The translations under genes were made by a program, and so were the position numbers. From the human T2T-CHM13v2.0 reference genome, Homo sapiens, in NCBI RefSeq assembly GCF_009914755.1, contig NC_060935.1: a stretch of 64,000 nucleotides of DNA. One strand, written 5' to 3'. Position 1 is the first letter of the stretch. Every line of letters starts with the position of its first letter. The notes below the pieces were generated by a model that made no database searches, was not told the DNA's origin, and was given only the letters and a program-made list of their open reading frames with translations. This document shows, one piece after another, positions 21,042 through 21,263 of the stretch.

Positions 21042-21263
21042 GTAGTCCCAGCTACTCAGGAGGCTGAAGCTGAAGGATCCCTTGAGCCCATGAGGTTGAG
21101 GCTGCAGTGAGCCATGATCATGCCACTGCATTCCAGCCTGGGTGACGCAGTGAGACTCTGTCTCAAAATAAAATAAAATAAATAGGTCAGGAGTTCTATT
21201 TGGATCTATTCTGGATCTTTTGTGGTTCCATATAACATATAGAATTTTATAAACTTTTAGAAT
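21042..21263. other. Complex locally templated insertion inside the L1MA element
   Basis: 21042-21196 copies 19082-19236 (3 mismatches in 155); 21206-21236 is the exact reverse complement of 21492-21522. Confidence 0.93.

What the first reader, a model, noticed from the sequence alone, without database searches (positions are those of the whole stretch)
21042..21263. Multi-template DNA-repair scar: 155 bp copied from 1960 bp upstream plus inverted, stuttered local copies
Seen: L1 ORF2 is broken at 'atttacaatag|...|caaataaaattaaatacc' with only a few bases lost and no TSD. Insert part 1 (21042-21196) equals 19082-19236 with 3 differences. It includes the locus-specific junction between the AluJ tail and the next Alu fragment ('aaataggtcaggagttc'), so it was copied from this locus and is not an ordinary new Alu insertion. 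Part 2 (21206-21236) is the exact 31-bp reverse complement of 21492-21522. It is preceded by a false start (ctatt-tggatc) and followed by re-primed pieces ('tagaatttt'; 'aacttttagaat' = reverse complement of 21483-21494). Known: iterative templated insertions are the hallmark of Pol theta-mediated end joining or FoSTeS/MMBIR. Inference: a germline fossil of at least 3-4 template switches, about 2% diverged and so probably within ape evolution. A repeat masker would mislabel it as an Alu fragment.
Basis: partly seen in the sequence, partly recalled or inferred. Interest (0 to 1): 0.72.

Follow-up and report, generated by a model that had tools for sequence, protein, structure and literature searches.

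The report
Multi-template DNA repair scar in L1
A dead jumping-gene copy in the human genome is interrupted by about 220 bases patched together from two nearby stretches of the same chromosome, likely the scar of a chromosome break repaired in an ape ancestor's germline; it is a clear but ordinary example of a known kind of mutation.

Summary
A decayed L1 ORF2 is interrupted by a 221-bp insert (21043-21263) with about 3 bp lost and no target-site duplication. Part 1 copies 19082-19236 (152 of 155 identical; other scored genome hits 89% or less). All 68 remaining bases parse as inverted copies of one 43-bp tract, 21480-21522, and carry its locus-private bases. This is a repair-mediated duplication (RD) as defined by Pace et al. 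2009: donor within 5 kb, about 160 bp long, microhomology, small deletion, filler. It is not in their table, whose pipeline excluded repeat donors. Most likely a resected break: the right end folded back and re-primed several times, then 155 bp were captured from upstream. Pol theta is not shown: its known templated insertions are 3-30 bp from within about 20 bp of the break. A replication-fork origin is not excluded. Age is loosely ape-lineage (95% interval 0.4-5.7% divergence); no orthologue could be examined. No function expected. New member of a known kind; low interest.

The parts
19445..21042 (+). Left flank: decayed L1 ORF2 (host element), broken after 21042
   Evidence: ORF2p matches; 82-84% identical to 3 best paralogs; paralog empty site
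19082..19236 (+). Donor 1: Alu right arm, A-rich tail and 13 nt of the next, 5'-truncated Alu
   Evidence: 152 of 155 identical to the insert; only 98% genome hit among 40 scored
21042..21196 (+). Insert part 1: direct copy of donor 1; G 21042 shared with the L1 flank, C 21196 shared with the filler (1-nt microhomologies)
   Evidence: 10 uncommon states shared with the donor against 46 other Alus
21196..21207 (-). Stutter copy of 21510-21522 lacking base 21517
   Evidence: full 5-mer cover reached by 28 of 25,420 background tracts and 1,048 of 200,000 shuffles
21206..21236 (-). Exact 31-nt inverted copy of 21492-21522
   Evidence: 0 of 24 paralogs hold the exact 31-mer
21236..21248 (-). Two short re-primed inverted tracts (21494-21499 and 21480-21488), or the end of a 43-nt arm with 2 substitutions
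21248..21263 (-). Inverted copy of 21483-21497 with a 1-nt slip; no microhomology with the right flank
   Evidence: 21237-21263 fully covered in 2 of 25,420 background tracts and 13 of 200,000 shuffles
21264..21870 (+). Right flank: L1 ORF2 resumes
21480..21522 (+). Donor 2: 43-bp L1 tract, template of all 68 filler bases; two tracts end at 21522
   Evidence: private bases 21492 (0 of 24 paralogs) and 21513 (1 of 24) are carried by the insert

Best explanation
The 221-bp insert is built entirely of copies of two nearby tracts and is likely the scar of a germline double-strand break repaired by synthesis-dependent end joining with several template switches. Shown: the sources, orientations, 0-2 nt microhomologies, about 3 nt lost, no TSD. 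Inferred: both ends were resected to 3' tails; the right end's bottom strand folded back on itself 217-259 nt away and copied the same 43-nt tract 3-5 times with slips; 155 nt were then captured from 1.8-2.0 kb upstream and the ends were joined almost blunt. I favour (about 3 to 2) one growing end that copied the single-stranded left tail in trans, because this needs only single-stranded templates, over a second end invading the upstream duplex (Pace's SDSA model). The polymerase is not identified; Pol theta is plausible for the stutters, less so for the 155-nt tract. The scar is inferred to be neutral and of ape-lineage age.
For: Local origin. Empty site and small deletion. No TSD and full parse. 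Size (155 versus mean 162 bp), distance (under 3 kb in 753 of 1,136), deletion 1-15 nt and filler 1-68 nt match RDs. Direct copies from the opposite resected end and inverse copies from a hairpin are the two described classes; one polymerase can alternate cis and trans copying. Insertions of up to 240 bp from within 2 kb of resected breaks, many with one blunt end, occur in human cells. Human meiotic resection reaches about 2 kb and hotspot SVs show template switching.
Against: Microhomologies are only 0-2 nt, below Pace's 2-9 nt at the outer junctions. Templates are far outside the 15-20 nt Pol theta window. Only 1% of mouse meiotic ends are resected over 1,800 nt, so a 2-kb left tail would be unusual for a meiotic break. 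Microhomologies are symmetric, so direction of synthesis cannot be read from the sequence. The empty site comes from paralogs, not orthologues.
Confidence: 0.7

Rival explanations
1. Replication-fork template switching (FoSTeS/MMBIR): a nascent strand left its template, copied the same local tracts, and returned within 3 nt of where it left.
For: Same geometry. Complex multi-template germline insertions, up to five templates, 33 and 26 in two people, are ascribed to MMBIR (PMC8421209). Chains of 180-200 bp templated pieces with little microhomology are ascribed to aberrant replication (bioRxiv 835058).
Against: Return within 3 nt with no flanking copy-number change is simpler for a two-ended break (inference). 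That study searched templates within 100 bp only.
Confidence: 0.2
2. RNA-templated patch: LINC02740 pre-mRNA (minus strand, this site intronic per the hub annotation) served as template for both ends.
For: If the left end made part 1 and the right end the inverted pieces, both templates have minus-strand sense. RNA patches are proposed for class 2 TSIPs and transcription promotes insertions.
Against: No splice junction or added poly(A); TSIP donors are distant; DNA templates suffice; germline transcription here is untested.
Confidence: 0.04
3. An ordinary or endonuclease-independent insertion of an unrelated Alu.
For: Part 1 is Alu sequence with an A-rich stretch; one other hit reaches query base 151 at 83%.
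Against: 98% identity to the local copy against 89% or less elsewhere among 40 scored of 1,915 candidates; 10 shared uncommon states; includes 13 nt past the local tail junction; no TSD.
Confidence: 0.02
4. Assembly artefact.
For: No reads or second assembly were examined.
Against: At 21067 the insert has the common Alu base (44 of 46) where the donor does not, and at 21057 the commoner base (30 of 46 against 12), so it is not a miscopied donor; the L1 flanks join in register.
Confidence: 0.02

Closest known systems
[quoted passage not shown] 2009, PMC2671141)
   Same: Interrupted transposable element; donor under 5 kb away; about 160 bp; microhomology, small deletion, filler; no poly(A) or TSD; 20 of their acceptors are two-donor chimeras.
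   Different: Donor is itself an Alu, which their pipeline excluded; the second donor is an inverted tract copied several times, which they would have scored as filler.
Pol theta templated insertions, direct and inverse (PMC7165422, PMC4912351, PMC11541566)
   Same: Direct plus inverse local copies, repeated re-priming, slips, short microhomology.
   Different: Tracts of 31-43 and 155 nt against 3-30 bp; templates 0.2 and 2 kb away against about 20 bp.
Complex germline MMBIR templated insertions (Osia et al. 2021, PMC8421209)
   Same: Several templates in both orientations within one germline insertion.
   Different: Those were found with templates within 100 bp; here one donor is 2 kb away.
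Class 2 TSIPs (PMC5110952)
   Same: No TSD, microdeletion, patch at a break.
   Different: Their donors are distant and proposed to be RNA; polymorphism here is untested.
Tandem short template jumps (Umbreit et al., bioRxiv 835058)
   Same: Piece size near 180 bp, little microhomology.
   Different: Somatic chains of many pieces from megabase-distant hotspots.

Membership tests
Repair-mediated duplication (Pace 2009) | Transposable element interrupted by 50 bp or more with flanks contiguous in the consensus | tested here: met
   221 bp; flanks 4 nt apart in 21 of 24 paralogs
Repair-mediated duplication (Pace 2009) | Single identifiable donor more than 50 bp and under 5 kb away | tested here: met
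   Gap 1,805 bp; 98% against 89% or less. Their automatic two-hit filter would have failed on an Alu, a limit they state
Repair-mediated duplication (Pace 2009) | Microhomology, small deletion and/or filler; no poly(A/T) added | tested here: met
   About 3 nt deleted, 67-nt filler, 1-nt microhomology; the A-rich stretch is internal and copied from the donor
Repair-mediated duplication (Pace 2009) | Orthologous empty site in an outgroup primate | not testable with these tools
   No primate relatives are held
Pol theta templated insertion | Direct or inverse copies of flanking DNA with re-priming | tested here: met
Pol theta templated insertion | Length 3-30 bp and template within about 20 bp of the junction | tested here: not met
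   155 and 31-43 nt; 0.2 and 2 kb
Pol theta templated insertion | Genetic dependence on POLQ | not testable with these tools
   Fossil event
Target-primed Alu retrotransposition | Target-site duplication and terminal poly(A) | tested here: not met
   Longest flank repeat 4 nt; the insert ends in inverted L1 sequence
Class 2 TSIP | Distant donor | tested here: not met
   Both donors within 2 kb
Class 2 TSIP | Polymorphic in humans | not testable with these tools
   No population data

The most novel reading that the evidence does not exclude
One 3' end wrote the whole patch by serial copying of the two resected tails, and the points where copying stopped (21522, reached twice; 19082) mark the single-strand/double-strand boundaries. 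RD donor distances (about 1.2 kb, rarely over 5 kb, deficit on X) would then be a fossil ruler of germline resection, and RD 'filler' would mostly be templated fold-back stutter, with repeat-donor cases an uncounted majority.
Probability: 0.15. Interest if true: 0.55.

Novelty: new member of a known kind. Interest (0 to 1): 0.27.

Why it matters
For the locus itself, little: a dead L1 in an intron of LINC02740, 1.9 kb from the annotated silencer. It is a base-by-base readable germline example in which fold-back stutter and kilobase-range capture occur in one event, which links RDs to end-joining chemistry described after 2009. It also shows a blind spot: local copies of repeats look like nested Alu insertions and were excluded from the RD census, so such scars are undercounted and can mislead Alu dating.

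Tried and rejected
Looked for a better donor genome-wide: none among the scored candidates (40 of 1,915; 40 of 52; not exhaustive). Looked for the locus in Pace Table S1: no chr11 row with coordinates starting 419-424; the hg18 position near 42.2 Mb is recalled, not lifted over; only 15 chr11 rows were read directly. A stable pre-existing hairpin on the right tail to prime fold-back: none, z = +1.22. A 3-nt TAG microhomology at the left junction: rejected, since it predicts a product 3 nt shorter than seen. An Alu-L1 chimeric subfamily upstream: rejected; in 6 of 6 loci fetched the Alu sits inside continuous L1 at an A-rich site, by-eye reading. A meiotic resection ruler: weakened, both implied lengths fall in the 1% tails of mouse data. 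A LINC02740 paper on this site: 7 listings, none about it by title or abstract start. Search for long-read surveys of local templated duplications: 0 papers. The Stroik 2024 review was not held; the Schimmel 2019 review was seen only as a citation. Earlier scan findings were not available.

Full report
Observation. Direct comparison confirms every coordinate. 21042-21196 matches 19082-19236 at 152 of 155 bases and identity stops sharply on both sides; 21206-21236 is the exact reverse complement of 21492-21522. In the whole window this pair gives the second and third longest exact direct matches and the second longest exact inverted match within 5 kb. The host is a decayed L1: reading-frame pieces on both sides match ORF2p and it is 82-85% identical to three of its best paralogs.

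Empty site. I aligned both flanks to 24 paralogous L1 loci. In 21 of 24 they lie 4 nt apart; 3 were set aside for their own insertions or deletion. The first of the 4 nt is G in 19 of 21 and is also the first donor base, so the insert is 21043-21263 (221 bp) with about 3 nt lost. The longest repeat flanking it is 4 nt, so there is no target-site duplication. These are paralogs; the true ancestral bases need an orthologue.

Local origin. Genome-wide, the only other close match to part 1 is the donor at 98%; the other 38 scored hits are 83-89%, and the longest reaches query base 151 at 83% (40 of 1,915 candidates scored). Insert and donor share 10 states found in under 20% of 46 other Alu segments. 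Of the 3 differences, the insert has the common Alu base at 21067 (44 of 46) and the commoner one at 21057 (30 of 46), and the donor has it at 21147 (44 of 46), so both copies have changed since. This argues against an assembly artefact. For the inverted part, 0 of 24 paralogs contain the exact 31-mer, and the insert carries the local private bases 21492 and 21513; the local tract is the top inverted hit among 40 scored.

Anatomy of the filler. Read on the bottom strand from the right flank inward, all 68 bases 21263 to 21196 come from 21480-21522: 21483-21497 with a 1-nt slip; 21480-21488; 21494-21499; 21492-21522; 21510-21522 lacking 21517; then part 1. Successive pieces overlap by 1, 2, 1, 2 and 1 nt; the right outer junction has none. 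Full cover of 21237-21263 by 5-mers is reached by 2 of 25,420 background tracts and 13 of 200,000 shuffles; for the 10-nt stutter, 28 of 25,420 and 1,048 of 200,000. A leaner reading takes 21206-21248 as one 43-nt arm with 2 substitutions. So there are 4 to 6 copied tracts. Two of them end at the same base, 21522.

Mechanism. Inference: a strand growing from the right end has the sequence of the top strand at 21480-21522, so its template is its own bottom strand, a fold-back on a resected tail at least 260 nt long. No stable hairpin is predicted there, in line with weak priming and repeated release. Part 1 could then be copied by the same end from the single-stranded left tail, or by the left end invading upstream duplex. 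Both classes, direct from the opposite end and inverse from a hairpin, are described for Pol theta (PMC7165422, passages), which alternates cis and trans copying (PMC4912351, passages). Against naming Pol theta: its insertions are 3-30 bp and its templates peak within 20 bp (PMC11541566, passages). Longer captures, up to 240 bp from within 2 kb of resected breaks, are linked to resection, RAD51 and NHEJ, with 59% having one blunt end (bioRxiv 2022.09.30.509517, passages). Human meiotic resection is put at about 2 kb (PMC7615360, passages), but in mouse 99% of ends exceed 280 nt and 1% exceed 1,800 nt (PMC7263140, passages), so a meiotic break with templates at both resection boundaries is a stretch. 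Microhomologies are symmetric, so the opposite direction of synthesis and a fork-based origin remain open.

Age. Three differences in 155 give 1.9% (95% Poisson interval 0.4-5.7%), or 4-10 million years as point estimates for rates of 2.2e-9 (Pace) and 1.0e-9 (assumed). With Pace's branch rates as prior, the chance that macaque shares it is 0.07 or less in all 9 settings, while human-only ranges 0.02-0.68 and shared with orangutan 0.00-0.55. 'Ape lineage' is fair; nothing finer.

What is known. Pace et al. 2009 (PMC2671141; main text parts 1-5 of 8 and the methods section read) found 824 human RDs within 5 kb, mean 162 bp, with microhomology 2-9 nt, deletion 1-15 nt and filler 1-68 nt; 20 acceptors had two donors. 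This event fits. It is absent from Table S1 by a coordinate-prefix search (hg18 position recalled), as expected because repeat donors were excluded. In part 1 of 24 of their Figure S1, read by eye, the first example's filler holds an 8-nt inverted copy of its own flank and the second ends in stuttered repeats of the donor end that the table assigns to chrY; so templated filler is not special to this locus. Complex multi-template germline insertions are common: 33 of 103 and 26 of 99 events in two people (PMC8421209, passages). TSIPs (PMC5110952, passages) and TST jumps (bioRxiv 835058, passages) resemble it less. Papers not named here were seen as listings only; bioRxiv supplements were not seen. 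My searches found no description of this site, but the library lacks most subscription journals and variant catalogues.

Verdict. Real, well resolved, a new member of a known kind, no function expected. Interest 0.27. The bolder reading, that stop points record resection boundaries and that RD filler is generally templated, is testable on ape T2T genomes; probability 0.15.

Noticed in passing
window 45976-46215 and 46395-46638: Inverted duplication of about 240 bp, 92% identical, around a spacer starting with a TG/AG/AT microsatellite; the arm has only these 2 matches in the genome. Possibly an older inverted repair-mediated duplication.
   Followed up: partly
window 16658-17033: Tandem duplication of 186 bp, 96% matches, in sequence that looks like a younger L1 (family recalled).
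   Followed up: no
window 18970-19445: The donor region is a truncated Alu, whose tail joins a second 5'-truncated Alu, followed directly by L1. In 6 other loci an Alu sits at the same A-rich L1 site with L1 continuing upstream, but here upstream L1 is missing, suggesting an older deletion at 19223/19224.
   Followed up: partly
window 21879-21964: An 86-bp element with 18-nt inverted ends interrupts the same L1; looks like a MADE1 mariner MITE (name recalled, untested).
   Followed up: no
L022 (G000:C23:94645044-94648491): A paralogous L1 has an independent Alu inserted within about 25 bp of the same L1 position.
   Followed up: no
PMC2671141 Figure S1, hg18 chr13:106474058 and chr6:14395452: By eye, 'filler' or second-donor pieces in two published RDs look like local stutter or fold-back copies.
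   Followed up: no
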